Source of the DNA: Eledone cirrhosa
Taxonomy: Eukaryota
Assembly: GCA_964016885.1 (NCBI GenBank)
Contig: OZ024740.1
Span: 70,928,001 to 70,992,000 of the forward strand
Direction: 5' to 3'
DNA: 64,000 bases
Positions 50,049 to 62,819 of the stretch are shown piece by piece. The notes under the pieces are model-generated. The model did not search any database. It was not told the DNA's origin and saw only the letters and a program-made list of their open reading frames with translations. Within the stretch, counting starts at the first letter, position 1, and every line of letters begins with the position of its first letter. Made by a program: the position numbers and the translations under genes.

Positions 50049-52558
50049 CTATCTATGTTTATATATAAGGGATAAAAATATTGCTTTCTCAGTCACCAAG
50101 CTTCTCAATTCATTCCTTACTACTTATTTTGCTACGAGGTATATTATTTTGCAATGTACTATTTTTCCCCTGAGTTTGTGATTTCAAAGAAAGGTAAGAA
50201 ATTCTTCATATTTTGCATCTTTTGTATTTTGACTTTGCAGTTTCAATTGTCTATCCATTCAAAATATTACAACAGCTAACAGTGAAATATAGAATTTAAA
50301 AAAAAAAGCTTTTTCGACTGAGATCAAATGTTTTTTTTTTATTTCAAAAATATATAATTTGAAATAGCTTGCTTTTGTTTTGGACTGAAACTTTTTTGTA
50401 TTTAATTCGTACGAGTATTTTTTAAAGAATCTAAGATAACTTGATTTGGCCCAGTAATCTGAATATATTGAAAATGGAAAAATAGGCCTTTCGTTTGGCT
50501 AAAATGGGTTGAGAACCTTTGTACTACACCGTACTCTCTTTCATTCCTCCTCTCTATATCAATTAGCCCCAAACTCTTCCCCTCTCTATATCTACTACAC
50601 GGAGCTCTCTTCCAATATTCCTCTCTCTATCAATTAACTCCAAACTATTCCCCTGTATATCTACTACACAGAAGTCTCTTCAAATTCCTCTCTCTATATC
50701 AATAAACCTCAATCTCTCTCCCCCTCTCTATATCTAATATACAACACACTCTCCCAACCTTCCTCTCTATCTCAATTAGCACCAAACTCCCCCCCCCCCC
50801 TCTATATCTTTATTTATCTCTCCCATCTGTCTCTACATAACATGTGCATAAATTTTAGCGCCTATACAAATAGATGTGTGTTTTGGTAGTTTGGGGAGAA
50901 AAATATAATTAGTGTGGGAGAGGGGCGGAGCATGTCCCCCTTCCTCCCCAGTTCCACCGCCCCTGCCTTCCCATCACCCCTATTTTCTCTTCCATATTTC
51001 CTTTCTATTAAATATGTAAATAGCATTAGACATGTGTTGTGGTTAATAGTTATTTCTAAATGGGTTCAGGTGTTGTGTATGTTGTTCATCAGCCTGTTTT
51101 GGGTTAGTGTTATGAATCCCAAGAGAAGGAGGTAAATGACCTCCCATTAATAGTTTAAACTGAATAATTATCTTATTAGCTGCCATCAGCTTTTAGTTCC
51201 AGTAGTCAAGTCTACAAGTGACTAGAAAAGTTTTATACACTACTTCTTTTATTCAGACTAATGAAATTTTAATACATGTATGCACTGTACGTTTTTGTAT
51301 TCGTTTGCTTCTATGAGTCAGCTAGAATTTAGTGACGTCATTCATTAAATTATGTTTAGAGATAAAGAAGAAGAGTTCGATGAATATAAATTAGAAGATT
51401 GTTTATTTAAATAATGGCACAACTAAACTGTGAGCTTATTAATCTAAAAGAAACAATTCTATTTTCTGCGAATCAATAGTCCCTGCCCGTGTCGGATTTT
51501 TCATTGTGCTTAGGTGTGCTTGAGCACAGGTTCCTGTTAGCTAAGAGTCCCATCTTCCTGTGTTGGCCTACCGGACCTACCTCCTTCAGAGCCCAAGTAT
51601 GGCGCCTCATAACTTAACTAACACAGGGCCTCATATGTCCTAAATCCAGCACTAGTCTCTGGCATTCATTTTATTGTAGATACACAGTGGAAGTTTGGTA
51701 TTTCATATCGTACTTTGTAATGAATATATTCAAGGTGTCATTACAGTATAATTTCTTAAGATTCTGTGGTACTGAAGATATGACAGTATTACTGCCCAGC
51801 TGAATATATTTCTACAATATTAAATCCTGCAGTCAAAATGGGGTTTATAACATCTCCAGAACCGTGCAAATGTTGGTAAAGATGAATGGAAAAATTTATG
51901 TCATAATTCGACAATTTAGCAGACATACTAATTTATTTTCTTCTTCTTTAGATTGGGAAGGAGGATTTGCCTCTTAAAGCTTGGGCTGAAAAAATGTCTC
52001 TGTGGATGGTGCGAGTTATGTGCCAAACAGAGCCCGACTACAGATCTTTTTTTTAAATCACTACAATGTTATATGTAGTTAAGATGGAATCGAATATCCT
52101 ATTGTATCAGCTCAATTGATTTAACTATAGCTATCCACCAATGAGTGATCATCTGTATCGATTTATATATAGATATGTTTCCATGTCCCTCTTTTTCCCC
52201 GTCGGCAGTTGATAAGCTTCAAAGTTATTCACATCCCCGAAACAATCATCAATTTTACACCTTTACTGCTATTTAGATCAGTGAACACTTGTCCTATTCT
52301 ATTTACAGTTTTGTGGAATAAAGTATTAATAGTTACGAACAGAATACAAACTTTCGATCCTTGGGTTAGTTGCTGGATATATTATCCCCTCAATCAACTG
52401 ATGATGCTATGCCTTAAACTGTGACCAGGGCCTCCAAGAGAAATTTTGCAAGGTGGTACAAGACCCTTTTGGGGCCCAAAGCAGGTAAAGATTTTTCTCA
52501 AAATGGATGTTGCATGGTTGCTATGGGGCCTTTTTAGCTCTTGGGCCCCAGAACAAAG

Positions 52559-52961
52559 TATAACGGGTTTTAGGGTCAATTCTTAATATACATAATAGAG
52601 ATCAGAAGGCATTTAGAACATTGACTAAATCCATTATCGATGTTGTAACTCTATTTATTAGTTGTACATGTTGAACGGATACATTAGGTACAGGTCGTAT
52701 CTACATGTGTAGGATGTAGTTTGGTCCGCTTCATTGCAAGATGGAGATGTTGTTAGCAGCGAGGAGTGTAGCCTGGTCTTGTCGATAAGAGAGGTGCGTG
52801 TAGACTAATGTCTCTCTTGGTCACCTCCGCTCACACTGGTGACGTAGTTCTGGACAGTCGAATTAGTGCACCGAAGGTTTCGATTGGCTCACACTTCAGC
52901 CAACTTACCTCCGTAACACCATTCCGCCGCAGAAGGAAAATACATTTTATTCACTGCTACA
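52559..52961 (-). repeat. 3' LTR (TGTAGC...TTATA on the minus strand); PPT at ~52962-52975
   Basis: Matches 57922-58324. Confidence 0.95.
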
Positions 52962-53183: not shown

Positions 53184-56100
53184 TCATATATAAAGAGTCT
53201 TGCAAAGCTTCTTGGGCCAATGTACTCGCCGACCGCTACGTGTGGTGGTGACATATGTAGGTGTAGGTGTGTGCGATGTTATATGTGTATTGTGGCTTGG
53301 CTGATGCCAGGTGTATGTGGGGGGAAAATGGGGCTCTTGTGTGAGAGTGTCTGTATAGGCCCGTTTTACCCTGTCAATGGACACAGTCTCTTTTTTACCC
53401 CCAATGTCTAGGGTGAATAGCTTATCTGTGCGCTCAAGCACGCGATAGGGACCGGTATAAGGTGGCATGAGAGGAGCTCTCACGGCGTCCTTTCGTAAAA
53501 AGACGTGGGTCCATGAAGCAATGTCTTTCGGGACCGAAGATTTGATTGTCTGTTGGCGAGGGTGCATAGGCGGAAGATTGCTGAAATATGATTGCAGTCT
53601 GCTCACATACAGAGCTGGGTCTGTTGCTGGTAGGTCCAATGGAGCTAACATCTGACCAGGCAGAGATATAGGCACTCCGTAAACCAACTCGGCAGGGGAG
53701 TAGCCTAGATCTTCCTTGATGGCTGCACGACAGCCCAGGAGGACAATTGGTACATATTCGCTCCACCGCTGCTGATCCGGATAAGCGCGCAGTGCGGCTT
53801 TCAATTGGCGGTGGAAGCGTTCAATCATTCCGTTAGAAGCTGGATGGTAGCTGGTCGTTCGAATGCGTTGCATTCCCAGGATCCTTGAAAGCTCTCGGAA
53901 AAGGTGTGACTCAAATTGTCCACCGCGGTCAGTGGTGATAGTGGCTGGAACTCCGTAACGCGATATCCAACCCGATACTAGAGCTCGCGCTACAGATTCC
54001 GCCGAAATGTCACTTAAAGGAATGGCCTCAGGCCAACGTGTGAAGCGATCTATGCAGGTCAGGAGGTATGTAAATCCTCGGCTGACCGGCCATGGTCCGA
54101 CAAGATCTATATGGACATGGCTGAACCTAGCGTCTGGAGTGCTGAAAGTTCCAAGGGGTGCGCGGATGTGTTTGTGCACCTTTGACTTTTGGCAGGATAG
54201 GCAGGAACGTGTCCAGGCAGTGATGTCACGCCTCATATTAGGCCAGAAGAATCTAGCCGAAATGAGCTTCACTGTGGTCGATATTCCAGGGTGTGCCAGA
54301 CCGTGCAAGGTGTCGAAAACTGCTCGACGATGAGTCACTGGCACTAGAGGGCGAGGTGCATCTGTCGAGGTGTCGCAGATAATCTGTGTGTCCGAAGTGG
54401 GCACAGGCAGATATGCAAATTTGCCAGTTGCAAATTCAGAAGACGAGAGGTCCAAAGTATCCAGAGGTGGTTGTTCTGTGGCCATTCGTTGGAGGTCGAT
54501 TTCCGCTGGCGATGACAGGGAATTAATTGGGAGGCGAGACAGTGCATCTGCCGCCGCATTCTGTTTACCAGAGATGTGTCGGATATCGCTGGTAAATTGC
54601 GAAACGAAGTCCAAGTGGCGAGTTTCGCGAGGTGAATATTTGTCCGGCTTAGAACGCAGTGCGAACGTAAGCGGACGGTGGTCAGTGTATATAACAAATT
54701 GGCGACCCTCCAGTGAATGCCGAAAGTGTTTCACTGCAAGGTACATAGCCAAGAGTTCACGGCCGAATGTGCTATACCGTGTTTCTGCAGGCTTCAGCTG
54801 TTTAGAAAAGTAGGCAAGAGGTTGTAACTGTTGTTGGTGATGTTGTTGCAGTACTGCACCTACAGCTGTGCCTGATGCATCAACAACCAGTGAAAACTGG
54901 GCACCAGACACAGGATGTGCAAGCAGTGATGTCTCCGCAAGCTTTCGCTTCACTTCGTCGAAGGCTTTTAGCTGATTCGTGTCCAATGAAATGGAATCGT
55001 TCTTCTTTTTCCTGTTACGTAACAGGTCGGACAGAGGAGACAGGAGATCCGCACAGTGTGGGATAAAGCGCCTGTAATAGTTCAGTAGCCCAAGGAAATG
55101 TCGTAGTTGACGAAGTGAAGTGGGTGGTTGGAGGTCTTGTACCGCTTTCACTTTATCAGGTAGTGGCGAAATTCCTTCTGGGCTGATGACATGGCCCAAG
55201 AAGACAAGTGAGGAAGCACCGAAAACACATTTTGCCGGATTAATTCTCACTTGGTATTTTTGAAATCTCTCGAACAGGAGACGGAGGTGATTGACATGTT
55301 CCTCAGGTGAGGCACTTGCCACAAGAATGTCGTCGATGTAGTTGTACACGAAGTCTAAATCGCGCACAACTTCATCCATAAATCGTTGGAACGTGCTGGC
55401 TGCGTTTCGCAAACCGAAAGGCATGGTCAAAAATTCAAACGCTCCAAATGGAGTTGTTACTGCAGTTTTAGGTATGTCTGCCGGGTTCACCGGGATTTGG
55501 TGGTATGCTTTGACCAAATCCAATTTGGAGAATATGTTGCATCCATGCAGCGAAGATGCAAAATCCTGTATGTGTGGTATCGGGTAGCGGTCGGGTACCG
55601 TCATTGCATTTAATCGGCGAAAGTCCCCAGTGGGACGCCAATCACCGGAACGCTTTGGTACCAAATGCAAGGGTGCAGCCCACGGGCTTGAGGATGGGCG
55701 AATGATCCCGAGCTGCAGCATGTGATTGAATTCAGCCTTTGCGGCCTTCAGTTTCTCAGCAGAGAGACGGCGAGGGCGCGAAAACACAGGAGCTCCGGAT
55801 GTTTCAATGTGGTGCTTGGTGGAGTGAGTAGGCTCACTCATCACAAAATTCAAATTTGTCAATTCCGGGAAGGAATGCAAAAGTGATTGGTAAGGATCTT
55901 CTGTAGCAGCGATAAAGAAGACCGGGCTGACCGACGAGACAGTCGATCTGGTACCCGGCACAGACAGTTCTGTGTTGGCATCCAACAACCGGCGTCTGCG
56001 CATATCCACTATCAAGTTATAGTGGTGCAGGAAATCTGAGCCTAGGATGGGGTAAGGCAGATCAGCAACAGTGAAGATCCACGTGAAATCTCTACGCAAT

Positions 56101-56345
56101 TCCAGGTTCAAAGAACGAGAAATCTGACCGTACGTGGGGATCGGTGACTGGTTTACTGCTTGCAGAGAGACGGTTGAGAGTTGGGGCTTCTCTTTGAGAA
56201 GTTTTAGCGGCCAAATGCTACAAGCCGCGCTGGTGTCGATCAGACAACGTGCTTGCGACTCAGTGTCTGTGATGAAAAACACACGGTTATTAGGGAGGGT
56301 CAGAGGAGACTGTGCCGTGCTCAGGTCTCCTGAAATCTGTTTCCC
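53184..56345 (-). CDS. pol: Pol (protease, RT, RNase H, integrase), probably expressed by -1 frameshift
   Basis: Uninterrupted ORF: [54 protein letters not shown]. Confidence 0.95.
56300..56345 (-). promoter_or_regulatory. -1 ribosomal frameshift signal (G GGA AAC plus downstream hairpin)
   Basis: Heptamer in the gag frame at 56345-56339; aggagac...gtctcct stem about 7 nt downstream. Confidence 0.75.
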
Positions 56346-57229
56346 TGGTCTGAAAATGTACAAGGCTGTTTACAGGAGCGTGCTGCTGCGCCAAAACGGC
56401 TGTGGTAGTAACACAAACCTGAACTGCTTGTGTGACGGCGTCGTGGCGAGGGTGAACGGCTCTGGAAACGGCGTCTGGGCGAATGAGCCCTGTGAGTGCT
56501 TAGTTTTCTCACTTCCTTGGTTAGCTGCTCTATTGCTTGCAGCATTGCTGCATTTGCAAGTGACTGGTCGGTATAACTGGCAGCCGCTGGAGTGAAGGAA
56601 GCGACCGCAGTCGGCGGCTGGGATGCATTGAAGGAGACAGGAGCGAACGGATTGACCGCAGCCGGTGGCTGGGGTGCCTGGAAGGAGGCAGGAGAGAACG
56701 GATTGACCGCAGCCGGTGGCTGAGGTGCCTGGAAGGGGGTAAATGAGGCTGGGTGTCCGATGACACTCATAACCCTGTCGGCCGAAGCCGCTAGCTGGTC
56801 GACAGGAGCAGCCTCCATCATGGGCGCTAAGATCGCCTGAACTCCGGGGGGTAGCCTTGAGACAAAAAGCTGTCTAAGGAGGGCACTGTCAGCTGGGGCA
56901 TCTTCCGCCAGCTCTCTCATCCGACGCAGTAGTTGTGTGGGCGTCCGATCACCCAAATGTTCGTCATTGACGAGCGTCTGAAATTTTTTTTCTGCGGACA
57001 ATGTGGTCCGCCGCAACACTTCGAGCTTCACGCTCTCATAGGAGGCCCCAGGGCGAGGATCGGTAATTAAGTCTTTGACGACCGACGTCAATGACGCTGG
57101 AAAAGCGCTTAACAGGAGATTTAACTGTCTGTGGTCACTGGTGATGTTATTCGCTGTGAAATGTGCTTCTATCTGGGCGAACCAGACAGTGACGTCACCG
57201 GTAAACGGTGGCAATGAAGTGCTACCCAT
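56321..57229 (-). CDS. gag: Gag with C-terminal CYYH...C...C (CHCC) motif
   Basis: LPPF...[44 protein letters not shown]. Confidence 0.93.
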
Positions 57230-57901
57230 TGTGTATACTGATGTAAAAGCAAAGGGCAAAGAAAGGACAACTCTGCACTTGTCACCGAGACAAAAGTTAA
57301 AATTCAGGCCAAGAAAAAATATAATCCGAGTGAAGGACAGAAAAAGAAAAATATATCAAAAACAATGTTGGAGGGAAAAACGTCAAGCTTTAAAAAAAAA
57401 TTATGATTTATCTTTGTCCTATTATTTTTTTTTTTTTTTTTTTTTGTGTACTTTTCAAAATGGCGTTGCCTCCGTCATTTTGGCGGGAAAACAGCTGAAG
57501 AAGACGGAAGTCGGCCATCTTGCTCTGTCCGGCTATCAGCACCAACAGTTTTTTTTTTAGTTTTTTTATAGCGTCGCCCAATCAGAAATTTAGAGGGAAA
57601 AATAAGATTTTTGTAGTAACGCATGTGTTCGGTGATGTTAGAAAGTGAAGGTGTGATGTGCAGATTTAGTAACAATAAGACAATATATCAAATACATATT
57701 AGGACTCACGCTAATCGCGTACATACCCCGAGAAAAGGCGAGTGGCTTTGTTTTTTTTTTTTGTTTTGTTTTTTTTTTTTTGGGGGGGGGGGGGGGATGC
57801 AAAATGTTGATGTGTTCGTTGCAACGGAAAGATGTGGTTTCTTCTGTGTTGATGTCCTTAAACGTTCGGGTCACCATTTATAATGTGATTTGTTGTATCG
57901 T

Positions 57902-57919
57902 ATCACGTCGGGGTCACCA
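57902..57919 (-). promoter_or_regulatory. Primer binding site, tRNA-Trp
   Basis: TGGTGACCCCGACGTGAT, 2 nt after the 5' LTR. Confidence 0.93.
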
Positions 57920-57921
57920 TT

Positions 57922-58324
57922 TATAACGGGTTTTAGGGTCAATTCTTAATATACATAATAGAGATCAGAAGGCATTTAGAACATTGACTAAATCCATTAT
58001 CGATGTTGTAACTCTATTTATTAGTTGTACATGTTGAACGGATACATTAGGTACAGGTCGTATCTACATGTGTAGGATGTAGTTTGGTCCGCTTCATTGC
58101 AAGATGGATATGTTGTTAGCAGCGAGGAGTGTAGCCTGGTCTTGTCGATAAGAGAGGTGCGTGTAGACTAATGTCTCTCTTGGTCACCTCCGCTCACACT
58201 GGTGACGTAGTTCTGGACAGTCGAATTAGTGCACCGAAGGTTTCGATTGGCTCACACTTCAGCCAACTTACCTCCGTAACACCATTCCGCCGCAGAAGGA
58301 AAATACATTTTATTCACTGCTACA
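57922..58324 (-). repeat. 5' LTR
   Basis: Matches 52559-52961. Confidence 0.95.
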
Positions 58325-58454
58325 AAAGTACCGGCTGGACCCCTCTCTCATAGGTCCTGACTGGCATAAATTTCCAGATAAACGGTTGAACTACGAAATT
58401 GTTTTATCTGTGGTATTGGTCAAGTTAAGGGTTGTGTCATGATGTTTGTAGCTC

Positions 58455-58650
58455 TCTAGGGCGATAGATTGACAGAATTGTCAGAGCGCCAGATAAATTA
58501 ATTTTCGGCATTTGGTTATGACCCTTTACGTTCTAAGTTCAAATCCTGCCGAGGTCAACTTTTCCTTCCGTCCTTCCGGAGTACAAGTACTGAGATCGAT
58601 TTTCCCCGTGTTCCACCCATCAAATTACTGACCTGGTGCCAATATTAGAA
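58455..58650 (+). mobile_element. Degenerate tRNA-derived SINE
   Basis: aagttcaaatcctgccgaggtcaactttt core. Confidence 0.7.
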
Positions 58651-58903
58651 AGAATTATATTTATAGCTCTTTAAAACTGAACACATTCCTGTTTGTATGT
58701 AAAATGATGACTGGGTCGAATTAGTAGAGGATCAAGTAAAAGATCAACGGTTGATATACTGTCACAGCGACCAAGCGTTGTTTCCGTAATCCGGACATTT
58801 AAATCTCTCTTAAAGAATTGGACTAACTAGTGAACTTTAACAGCAGTGAACTATAAAACTAACAACTGATTCGCTCGTTTGTATAGATTCGGTCGCTATG
58901 ACT

Positions 58904-59153
58904 TACTCTCGGGTCCCAATAACAGGGGTGGGGGAATAAGTGGGTGGGTTGGACATTTGCTCAAATTCTTATAAGCGGGTGGGGGAATCGGTAATTGTAT
59001 TGTGTATGTTCGTAAATATGGGATTTCTTGTAGTGTTCTTTTTTTGTCAAATAAAATTTCGCCGGAGATAGATTAGCAAAATTTAAAATGTGGTGGAGGG
59101 GGTCTAAAAATTAATTACCGGGGAGAGGGGCGATTATTCAAGACCAGAGAGTA
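58904..59153. mobile_element. MITE-like element (partial inverted relative at 47058-47205)
   Basis: Imperfect TIR tactctcgggtc..aataa / ttattcaagaccagagagta; shared internal aataaaatttcgccggagatagattagcaaaattt. Confidence 0.6.
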
Positions 59154-59550
59154 AATATCTTTTCCATGGATACAACATTTTGTTTACAACAGTCCACAAA
59201 TCACTGACCAGTCTGACTATCGTCTCAATAAGTACGAGTTCTATACTGTGATCAAATCGATTGACTACAGCTGACTCCTACAAAAATTGGCCTGGTTCTT
59301 AAAAGAGAAATCGATATTTGATTAATATTGTCTTTTCTATTTTTAAATTTAGGAAACTTAAAACCAGAATGATTTTTTTTCTTAAAATCTGAATGATGAA
59401 TATCAAAGAAGATTGTTTATCAATGATAAAAGTACCACATGTTCTCGCAGGGAGTAAGGAAATTGATAACCGTTGTAACTAAATCTACCTTACTTCCTTT
59501 TAAAATGCTATAATTAAAACATGCTGTTGAGCATGTTTTAAGTATAGTTT

Positions 59551-61622
59551 TGTAGCGGTTGTCTCCCTTGTTTTGATTGGGATCTAGACGGGAAGTAGAA
59601 CCCTTTCTGCAACTTCCGGTCAGAGCCCTATAAAACTAACAACTTTAAGCTTTCTAACTCTCTTTGCCTTTTCGGCACCAGGTCAAGAGCCTCTCATTTG
59701 GCTCTGCCATTAATTTGGCCAACAGGCGCCTGGCCTTAGCCAGGCGTCCTCTGCCAGCCGCGTTTGCCTGGCAATCAAAACGGTAACTACTAACTTTGTT
59801 TCATTCTAACATCTATCTTTGACATGTCAAGTATACTATCTACCATTGTTAATTAAATATTATACACCCAAAACATATATTCCTTGTTACATTCATACAA
59901 CCCAGTATCCTCGCTATATTGGTAACCCTGACGTGATACGAACACGCAGCCGTTCATCGCTATAAGTGGTCCCCCCCCCCCAAAAAAAAAGAAAAAAATA
60001 GCACATCTGGTTTTGTGAGTAACATTACGAATACACAGCAAATTTAGCGACAAACTATGAAAATACTCAAGGACACGCACACACGCACATGTGGAATTCG
60101 CACAGACAGACTTTTTCTCTCACGCATCAATTAACTGTCGCATTTCACCAATATATATATATGTTTCTCGTTTCTTACAACGAACTCTTTCAAAACACAA
60201 AAAAAAAAAAAAGAAATTTGATATTCTTTAAAAAACATTTCAACAGGAACATTTATTTTCGATGAACCATTGCCTTTTTGTTCATCGTTTTCTTCATCGT
60301 TCAAGTTTTTTGTTTTTTTCCAAAGTTCACACCAATAATTATGCTGAGTGAAGCATTTCTTTTTCATCATTGTCACTTTCAAAATTGCACTATCATTTTC
60401 TCGCGCGTTAGAAATATTATTTTTTTCAACCTTGTATTGGCACGTGTAGGCAGCACAAATTCTCGATTCACAGAGATGTCTCTACACACAGACATAGCCG
60501 CACGCCAGAGATAACATTTCTCGCCAAGGATTCTTCAGCCTTAAGCTATATTCTTCTATTTGCCGGTTTATAAATTTACAATGTAAATTTACCGTTGATA
60601 ACCGCGCATTTATTAAGAATGCTTATTTCTCTGGTCGCTGGCCTCTTGACCCTTCCAGGTCAACGCATTCTCAACATCGACCATCAACTTCGGCTGCTAT
60701 TTCTAGCACTTTGCGCAACTCATTTTTTCTAAAAAAAAAAAAATAAAATTTTTTTTTTTTTTTTACTGTGAATTTAAACACCGAATACGCTCACTCAGCG
60801 AGACAACAGCATCAGCAGCAATACCTCAACACAGCTTCACCAACAACCAGCAGAACGCCAGAGAATTTATTTTTGCAGCACTCTCCCTGTGAGAAAATCC
60901 ATTCGGAGGTTGGAAATTTCACGATATACCACAGAACAGAGACCACCTGCATTCATTCTCTGGAACACACTTTCTTTCCTGCTGTCATGTGATTGCACAC
61001 CTGTGAACTATATTTTGTACATTTGAACTTTGAGCTCTTCTATTACTTTTACTTTATTACATTGTATCTTTGGGTGATGGATAGATGGATGTCCAGTCGT
61101 TCTCTGGCCAAGAGCGGTTGACTACCTTGATATCTATCATTGATTTTTCCAAACATTCTTTTGTCGTAATTTTCATGCTTGTTACAACATTCTCGTCAAC
61201 TTGCTACATATTTTCATTTCGATTTTTATACACTAAAATTCTGGCGGGAGGTTATGTAGCGGTTGTCTCCCTTGTTTTGATTGGGATCTAGACGGGAAGT
61301 AGAACCCTTTCTGCAACTTCCGGTCAGAGCCCTATAAAACTAACAACTTTAAGCTTTCTAACTCTCTTTGCCTTTTCGGCACCAGGTCAAGAGCCTCTCA
61401 TTTGGCTCTGCCATTAATTTGGCCAACAGGCGCCTGGCCTTAGCCAGGCGTCCTCTGCCAGCCGCGTTTGCCTGGCAATCAAAACGGTAACTACTAACTT
61501 TGTTTCATTCTAACATCTATCTTTGACATGTCAAGTATACTATCTACCATTGTTAATTAAATATTATACACCCAAAACATGTATTCCTTGTTACATTCAT
61601 ACAACCCAGTATCCTCGCTATA
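59551..61622 (+). mobile_element. Young non-autonomous LTR element (368-bp LTRs at 59551-59918 and 61255-61622, non-coding interior)
   Basis: LTRs differ at one visible site; TGTAGCG...CGCTATA ends; TSD GTTT; Trp-type PBS at 59920; purine tract ggcgggaggtta before the 3' LTR; no retroelement ORF inside. Confidence 0.92.
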
Positions 61623-62819
61623 GTTTTCTTTAAGTAAAATAACATTTTCCAAGCTGATTAAGTAACTCTAACTATAATTTATTGTGATTTTTTTAGTCTT
61701 TATAGCGTTTATATTTAGATTATCTTGTGCACAGAGTACTTAACTCTGGCTCCTGCAAAGTATTTAGCGGAGATGGTTCCTTATTTGCATATATGCATGT
61801 ATACTTTGTATATAATACTTAATTACCACTAATCTTCGTGCTGCAGCTGTCGCATTAAACATCTTCTTACAAAAAATATATTTTACAATATTCAAAGTGA
61901 GTCAAAAGTAATTCAGTTCTTACTTTATGAAACACCACTTTCAAGTAAAGGCGGATAATGAATTTGGTGGTGGTGGTGGTGGTATGTCGTTGTTTAGCCC
62001 CAGGTCAACTTTGATTGATCATATATTTGATCAAAAACATTCCAGCCATAACCTTCCTGTCTTTTTATGAGTATCTGGGGCTACATGGCCTACTCTGTTT
62101 TTTTTTCTTATTTAAAACGCTAAAGTGTAATTTCAAGAAAATATCACTGCTAGTTTGCAATGCATTCAGCAAGAACGTAGAGGCTCCCGTGTCAACTCGT
62201 CTTGGTCCATGTATTCAAATAGTTCCTGCAAGCTAATAAACCCTCATTGATTCTACACTGCTGTCGCTGCTTATAATAGTGAATTAGAAAGATAAAGCTA
62301 GGATTCTGCCTGCATCTAGAAATTCTACTTGATTTACATTCTGACCAGTTTGAGATTGTACACGGGTGAGGGTGAATAATCTCAAGTAAATCACAATAGG
62401 CAGTCAGCGTATTGATATCTGCTCACAAAATATATCATACAGGTCTTCAATAAAACGGAAGAAATATTGTAAAATTATTTTACCATATAAAATTGTAGTC
62501 TCTAAGTAGTCGCTTGACCTAGTTTTATAACTGTTAAATTCCCTATAGTCTCACCCTTCCACGTTAAAAAAAGAAGAAAAGACACTTTGGATAATGTAGT
62601 CCTAGATATACAAAAATACTTAATGATTATGACTGAAATATTTTTTACCATAAACCTGCTTAGTCACAGATGAATTGAGGCTTTACAACAACAATAACTT
62701 CACTATCACTATTTAAATACTTCATTGTCATAGAATCTCTATGTCCTATGTTCTCAACATTTTTTGCTCCATACCTCCAAGACGTCCTGATTTTTCAAAT
62801 GCCTCCCCCACGTTATATT

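What the first reader, a model, noticed from the sequence alone, without database searches (positions are those of the whole stretch)
57868..59970. Both LTR elements repeat their own LTR-end+PBS-start junction 43-46 bp downstream
Seen: in the Gypsy, ttataaatggtgaccc (minus strand) occurs at 57926-57911 and again exactly at 57883-57868. In the non-coding element, tcgctata-t-tggt at 59911 recurs as tcgctata-ag-tggt at 59957. Each echo matches its own element's LTR end, at similar spacing, in otherwise unrelated sequence. Inference: a conserved feature I do not recognise, such as a second priming or strand-transfer acceptor, a decoy att/PBS (for example against 3' tRNA fragments), or a by-product of plus-strand transfer after tRNA read-through.
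Basis: partly seen in the sequence, partly recalled or inferred. Interest (0 to 1): 0.75.

Follow-up and report, generated by a model that had tools for sequence, protein, structure and literature searches.

The report
Stuttered primer junctions in LTR retrotransposons
Two jumping-gene families in this animal genome carry a second copy of the short signal where their DNA copying starts, likely left when the copying enzyme overran its tRNA primer and jumped back, and in eight insertions elsewhere in the genome that spare copy is the element's actual end.

Summary
The echoes are real, at the stated coordinates, and family-wide. Both elements are tRNA-Trp-primed; the coding one meets the CsRn1-clade tests. 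In the non-coding family the DNA between primer site and echo is a copy of the primer tRNA itself (17 nt, wrong base opposite A58). Two single copies elsewhere (L322, L424) show the same insert freshly made. Best reading: an over-long plus-strand copy jumped back onto the LTR end, so a new primer site was stacked in front of the old one. In the Gypsy the spacer does not match tRNA, so its origin is by analogy. The echo is not clade-wide (7 of 95 primer-site groups), does not track the LTR end copy by copy, and is lost and gained repeatedly. It is not inert either: 8 of 8 LTRs that end at the echo have perfect 4-bp target duplications, and a third family carries an old junction fixed inside its LTR. 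The scan noted tRNA read-through, unequal LTR tips and a stacked junction before on other DNA of this genome. Nine paper searches found no report of fixed junction duplications. Verdict: new variant of known aberrant strand transfer, interest 0.55.

The parts
57922..58324 (-). Gypsy 5' LTR, 403 bp, TGT...ATA
   Evidence: 99.75% to 52559-52961
57902..57919 (-). Gypsy primer-binding site 1: perfect 18-nt complement of host tRNA-Trp 3' end, 2 nt after the LTR
57887..57901 (-). Gypsy spacer; only its first bases resemble the tRNA complement, not significant
   Evidence: p 0.86; not a decayed copy of the next unit, p 0.31 and 0.56
57862..57886 (-). Gypsy echo: copy of the LTR end, 2-nt spacer, decayed primer site (9 nt exact, about 15 nt in all)
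   Evidence: (D20)
56321..57229 (-). gag ORF (first Met to stop): DUF7041, CHCC zinc knuckle
53184..56369 (-). pol frame: RT, RNase H, integrase
52559..52961 (-). Gypsy 3' LTR; polypurine tract directly before it; 4-bp target duplication at 52555-52558 and 58325-58328
59551..59918 (+). non-coding element 5' LTR, 368 bp, TGT...ATA; 4-bp target duplication at 59547-59550 and 61623-61626
59920..59937 (+). primer-binding site 1, tRNA-Trp complement with two family-wide mismatches
59938..59955 (+). continued copy of tRNA-Trp (T arm and variable loop): wrong base opposite A58, then 16 matches with one inserted base
   Evidence: shuffle p 5e-5
59957..59970 (+). non-coding echo: 8-nt LTR-end copy, 2-nt spacer, start of a decayed primer site (9-11 nt in other copies)
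61255..61622 (+). non-coding element 3' LTR, preceded by a polypurine tract

Best explanation
The echo is likely the element's older LTR-end/primer junction, pushed downstream when a plus-strand DNA that had likely overrun the primer tRNA jumped back onto the LTR end; the spare junction is shown to form the insertion end in eight copies of the non-coding family. Steps: (1) plus-strand strong-stop DNA copies the tRNA past its normal stop at A58 (inferred; the tRNA-derived insert is shown). (2) The minus strand ends inside U5 and carries the genomic primer site, as in Ty1/Ty3 (inferred from inherited primer-site mismatches and unequal U5 tips, both shown). (3) The unpaired 3' end re-anneals on the last 8-12 nt of U5 and copies LTR end, old primer site and leader (inferred; fresh single-copy products L322 and L424 are shown). 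(4) The new full-length site takes over and the old one decays (decay variants shown; order inferred). (5) The two direct repeats then misalign now and then, giving collapsed copies, extra units and LTRs 46 nt longer that end at the echo (all shown). (6) The echo likely persists because a collapse between the repeats removes the good primer site and keeps the weak one (inferred). For the Gypsy, steps 1-3 rest on analogy only.
For: Non-coding spacer = tRNA-Trp complement, mismatch opposite A58. L322: a copy nested among single-junction relatives with a different insert of perfect 18-nt site + 8 more perfect tRNA bases + 7 nt + LTR-end copy in front of the same 11-nt site. L424, a third family: site + 22 perfect tRNA bases joined through a 3-nt overlap to its own LTR end. 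Primer site perfect in 2 of 32 copies, same two mismatches in 22 of 32; 50 of 209 LTR-LTR differences lie in the last 30 nt, p 2e-11 (8 of 40 copies dropped for lack of both LTRs or a target duplication). Gypsy single-junction copies are not one clade (AU p 1e-4) and have their own target duplications. Nine collapsed non-coding copies against 348 long-form hits, 6 copies with extra 5' units, 8 of 8 echo-ended LTRs with target duplications. Same architecture, with several different unit lengths, in metagenome contigs L101, L154, L170, L183, L189, L145, L185, L204. HIV-1 proviruses with 7-54 nt tRNA inserts after delayed second-strand transfer (PMC12657518, passages).
Against: The Gypsy spacer shows no significant tRNA match. 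Units in L145/L185/L204 have no tRNA copy at all. In 46 non-coding copies the tRNA copy (0.009 non-majority) and the first 6 nt after the echo (0.011) vary less than the leader (0.056), which fits selection as well as youth. L424 has no perfect target duplication. Trees are shallow, weakly supported and open to recombination, and have no outgroup, so the order of events is inferred. No cDNA intermediates were seen. The U5-tip excess may partly reflect that these sites are the most polymorphic.
Confidence: 0.7

Rival explanations
1. The stacked junction is kept by selection: the long tRNA copy strengthens primer binding, and the echo serves as a routine landing pad or backup priming site, or as a decoy for 3' tRNA fragments.
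For: The tRNA copy and echo start are the least variable unanchored multi-base blocks in 46 copies. The extension lowers the predicted primer duplex from -27.7 to -59.0 kcal/mol in a family whose primer site has two mismatches. The echo works as an end. Single-junction copies with the echo-type end on both LTRs spread with an 11-nt site. L321 has the spacer and perfect site expected from priming at the echo.
Against: 88 of 95 primer-site groups lack it. It is lost repeatedly in young inserted copies. The echo site decays (predicted duplex -12 to -25 kcal/mol). Echo and LTR end differ in many copies. No Gypsy LTR ends at the echo (0 of 40 hits, judged by position).
Confidence: 0.2
2. Plain slippage or unequal recombination duplicated the junction, with no tRNA overrun; most relevant to the Gypsy and to L145/L185/L204.
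For: No tRNA signal in the Gypsy spacer. Short units without tRNA copy in L145/L185/L204. Exact 46-nt unit expansions occur.
Against: The Gypsy sequence after the echo is not a decayed copy of the first unit (p 0.31, 0.56). Slippage cannot supply the tRNA-derived bases in the non-coding family, L322 or L424.
Confidence: 0.1

Closest known systems
CsRn1 clade of Ty3/Gypsy LTR retrotransposons (PwRn1, AgCR; PMC2582038, section 6 read in full plus passages)
   Same: tRNA-Trp primer site, 4-bp target duplication, TGT...ATA ends, CHCC Gag motif
   Different: The text read describes one primer site of about 12 nt and no repeated junction; its Additional file 1 (an image of LTR ends and primer sites) could not be seen
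Aberrant (delayed) second-strand transfer in HIV-1 (PMC12657518, passages; m1A58 stop in PMC8599865, passages)
   Same: Primer site followed by a tRNA-derived insert and a template jump
   Different: In HIV-1 the jump goes downstream and all 44 such proviruses were defective. Here the jump goes back to the LTR end, deletes nothing, and is inherited by hundreds of copies
Ty1/Ty3 plus-strand transfer through R-U5 with a dead-end, tRNA-containing strong-stop DNA (PMC5371799, section 2.2 read in full; the original papers were not held)
   Same: Primer-site mismatches are inherited, not corrected from the tRNA
   Different: Here the 'dead-end' product appears to be rescued now and then and fixed
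Cultured HIV-1 mutants with two primer-binding sites (recalled, not found)
   Same: Two primer sites in tandem behind U5
   Different: As recalled, laboratory mutants with different tRNAs, not natural fixed families

Membership tests
CsRn1 clade (coding element) | Primer site complementary to tRNA-Trp | tested here: met
   18 of 18 to host tRNA-Trp genes L097-L100
CsRn1 clade (coding element) | Gag CX2HX9CX3C motif | tested here: met
CsRn1 clade (coding element) | 4-bp target duplication and TGT...ATA/AAA LTR ends | tested here: met
CsRn1 clade (coding element) | Pol order RT-RNase H-integrase, no env | tested here: met
   no further ORF of 150 aa or more between pol and the 3' LTR
CsRn1 clade (coding element) | RT phylogeny with named CsRn1 members | not tested
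   no reference sequences fetched
Non-autonomous CsRn1-type LTR element | Paired LTRs, primer site, polypurine tract, 4-bp duplication, no long ORF | tested here: met
Non-autonomous CsRn1-type LTR element | Identified autonomous partner | tested here: inconclusive
   no LTR similarity to the window's Gypsy; partner not searched further
Delayed second-strand transfer product | tRNA-derived bases beyond the 18-nt site, then a template jump (non-coding family) | tested here: met
Delayed second-strand transfer product | tRNA-derived bases beyond the 18-nt site (Gypsy) | tested here: not met
   p 0.86
Delayed second-strand transfer product | Over-long plus-strand cDNA observed | not testable with these tools
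   needs cDNA-end sequencing
Conserved cis-element of the clade | Present in most families and co-varying with the LTR end | tested here: not met
   7 of 95 groups; no copy-by-copy tracking

The most novel reading that the evidence does not exclude
tRNA-Trp-primed Gypsy elements have a recurring cycle that rebuilds their own 3' LTR boundary. An overrun adds a fresh primer site in front of the old junction; use of the downstream junction then turns old primer site and tRNA copy into U5. LTR ends thus walk downstream and U5 is partly built from host tRNA, with new units added at one end of the stack. The same cycle would renew a decayed primer site, or switch primers, in elements that cannot inherit the site from the tRNA.
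Probability: 0.4. Interest if true: 0.7.

Novelty: new variant of a known kind. Interest (0 to 1): 0.55.

Why it matters
It turns an error known from dead HIV-1 proviruses into an inherited, recurring change of live retrotransposon families. It gives genomic support for Ty1/Ty3-style plus-strand transfer in an animal Gypsy clade. It shows one way LTR ends and U5 can grow and how a primer site can be renewed. It also warns annotators that an LTR boundary placed before the first primer site can be wrong in such families.

Tried and rejected
(1) U5-leader stem as the reason for the echo: minimum-energy folds were weak (-13.1 and -15.3 kcal/mol over 110 nt, no shuffle control) and differed between the elements; not pursued. 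(2) Gypsy echo as a decayed full tandem duplication: p 0.31 and 0.56. (3) Gypsy spacer as tRNA copy: p 0.86. (4) Single-junction Gypsy copies as one ancestral clade: rejected, AU p 1e-4. For the non-coding family also rejected as one clade (p 4e-8), though 8 of 9 lie in one subclade mixed with double-junction copies. (5) Echo-ended Gypsy LTRs: none among 40 hits. (6) Failed scripts: searches (labels wrong, three truncated rows; 7 of 37 rows; crash) are not used; one search lacked L322 and was redone. (7) Paper searches gave no report of fixed junction duplications; PMC12471100 (passages) was of no use. (8) Scan look-ups by words and by sequence returned nothing.

Full report
1. Observation. 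The window lies in a 3.0-Gb genome held as G000. The Gypsy runs 58324-52559 on the minus strand, with 403-bp LTRs one base apart and a 4-bp target duplication. The non-coding element runs 59551-61622, with 368-bp LTRs and a 4-bp duplication. The Gypsy 16-mer stands at 57926-57911 and 57883-57868; no shuffle of 5000 reaches it. The non-coding echo is an 8-nt LTR-end copy plus TGGT; the joint pattern appears in 2 of 200000 shuffles, the 8-mer alone in 80 of 5000. Both primer sites are complementary to the host tRNA-Trp. Gag has DUF7041 and the CHCC motif; Pol has RT, RNase H and integrase. This meets the CsRn1 features listed in PMC2582038 (section 6).

2. How widespread. The echo is in 29 of 29 anchored best hits of each family (1 of 30 lacked the anchor in each; best hits are biased towards the query). 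Searches anchored outside the junction give 25 of 30 Gypsy loci double and 5 single, of 46 hits. For the non-coding family they give 348 long-form hits (1 of 30 fetched was false) against 10 short-form hits, 9 real. Of 410 exact primer sites in the genome, 112 have an echo within 8-38 nt; the 100 listed all belong to these two families (the odd one, L322, is a non-coding relative). Across 140 primer-site loci (30 own, 110 metagenome) grouped into 95 sets by upstream sequence, the echo score is two-peaked: 7 sets score 16 or more, the rest 9 or less. The 95 include some chance and tRNA-gene matches, and the five metagenome sets are partly related to each other. So it is a recurring minority trait, not a clade hallmark.

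3. What lies between the junctions. In the non-coding element the 18-nt site continues as tRNA-Trp complement for 17 more bases, with a wrong base opposite A58 (p 5e-5). That m1A58 is the plus-strand stop comes from PMC8599865 (passages); that it causes misincorporation is recalled. In the Gypsy the spacer matches neither the tRNA (p 0.86) nor the sequence behind the echo. Two single copies show the insert freshly made. L322 sits among single-junction relatives and has a perfect site, 8 further perfect tRNA bases, 7 unexplained bases and an LTR-end copy in front of the same 11-nt site its relatives use; it has no 3' LTR in the stretch fetched (output before the crash). L424, of a third family, has 22 tRNA bases beyond the site, to about position 37, joined through a 3-nt overlap to its own LTR end, without a perfect target duplication. 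Metagenome contigs L101, L154, L170, L183 and L189 show the same order with other unit lengths, some in arrays; L154 is followed by a related Gag.

4. Where the jump can land. In 32 of 40 fetched non-coding copies with both LTRs, the primer site is perfect in 2 and has the same two mismatches in 22, and 50 of 209 LTR-LTR differences fall in the last 30 nt (p 2e-11). This fits the Ty1/Ty3 scheme, in which the site is not inherited from the tRNA, the plus strand transfers through R-U5, and the tRNA-containing strong-stop DNA is a dead end (PMC5371799 section 2.2). A minus strand that reaches into U5 is the template the jump needs. This step is inferred, and the tip excess may partly reflect high polymorphism there.

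5. What the echo does afterwards. Loss: single-junction Gypsy copies at four insertion sites have their own 4-bp duplications and 0-2 LTR differences (one is a cluster whose outer flanks match), and are not one clade (AU p 1e-4). Gain: six non-coding copies have extra 5' units, and L321 has the echo's spacer followed by a perfect site, as expected from priming at the echo. Use as an end: two searches for echoes followed by an unusual base gave 22 matches: 8 LTR ends, 8 extra-unit junctions, 6 spacer variants. All 8 of 8 echo-ended LTRs, two of them solo, have perfect 4-bp duplications. These show the echo's LTR-end copy acting as the integration end; whether the decayed site or a full extra unit was primed cannot be told. 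Exchange: six single-junction copies whose 3' LTR end was read carry the echo-type end on both LTRs, and L225, L240 and L380 have it at both LTR end and echo. Fixation: a third family carries a 12-nt tRNA copy and 8 nt of primer site inside the last 45 nt of its LTR, in solo LTRs too.

6. Does it track the LTR end? Between families yes, within families only loosely. None of the 8 copies with the second echo allele had that allele at its LTR end. In the Gypsy the echo varies at two CpG-type sites while the LTR end mostly stays. Against a pure fossil: the tRNA copy and the 6 nt behind the echo vary least among unanchored multi-base blocks in 46 copies, and the extension roughly doubles the predicted primer duplex. 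The extension may be under selection even if the echo is not.

7. Mechanism and odds. Overrun and jump back, then entrenchment because a collapse costs the good site: 0.7. Selected second site: 0.2. Plain slippage: 0.1. Shown: sequences, counts, target duplications, non-monophyly. Inferred: the intermediates, the order of events, the ratchet.

8. Known and new. The nearest precedent is delayed second-strand transfer in HIV-1, with 7-54 nt tRNA inserts, a downstream jump and defective proviruses (PMC12657518, passages). Searches found no report of a fixed, inherited junction duplication or of walking LTR ends. The library lacks most subscription papers, and the image supplement of PMC2582038 could not be seen. 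Earlier unchecked notes of this scan on other DNA of the same genome describe the read-through (e1-10321918), the unequal LTR tips (e1-10326432) and a stack of junctions for different tRNAs (e1-9554435, not tested here). My reading was formed before these look-ups. Verdict: new variant of a known kind, interest 0.55.

Noticed in passing
L381-L420 (non-coding family): The 5' and 3' LTRs of single copies differ mostly in the last 20-30 nt of U5, often as swaps between common family alleles; U5 -20..-9 is the most variable block. This bears on LTR-based dating. Noted before by the scan (e1-10326432).
   Followed up: partly
L078, L422-L446: A third family (at least 40 hits) has a 12-nt tRNA-Trp copy (0 of 20000 shuffles), an older end-like motif and 8 nt of primer site fixed in the last 45 nt of its LTR, also in solo LTRs with target duplications (L441, L446).
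   Followed up: yes
L061, L063-L066, L079: Coding relatives carry about 14-19 nt of tRNA-Trp complement beyond the primer site but no echo.
   Followed up: no
L135, L145, L147, L159, L185, L204: In these metagenome contigs one to four primer-site units are followed by an 8-nt end copy and then differing flanks, as if the primer sites lie inside the LTR; target duplications could not be checked.
   Followed up: partly
L312: A second, longer duplication (about 90 bp) of U5 end, primer site and leader through a short shared word; its U5 matches the 3' LTR, not the 5' LTR.
   Followed up: no
L291; G000:C2:87933130-87933210: Two tRNA-Trp primer sites back to back, with an inverted LTR end in front of the Gypsy leader.
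   Followed up: no
L333-L335, L337-L338: Head-to-tail Gypsy units sharing LTRs.
   Followed up: no
G000:C4:353394904-353486314 and C4:277407662-277440858: Two clusters of hits to a tRNA-Trp arm motif; the 4 copies fetched are tRNA-Trp genes.
   Followed up: partly
window:56589-56741: Three 51-bp in-frame repeats inside gag (D17).
   Followed up: no
window:59508-59547: A 40-bp imperfect palindrome directly left of the non-coding element's insertion site.
   Followed up: no
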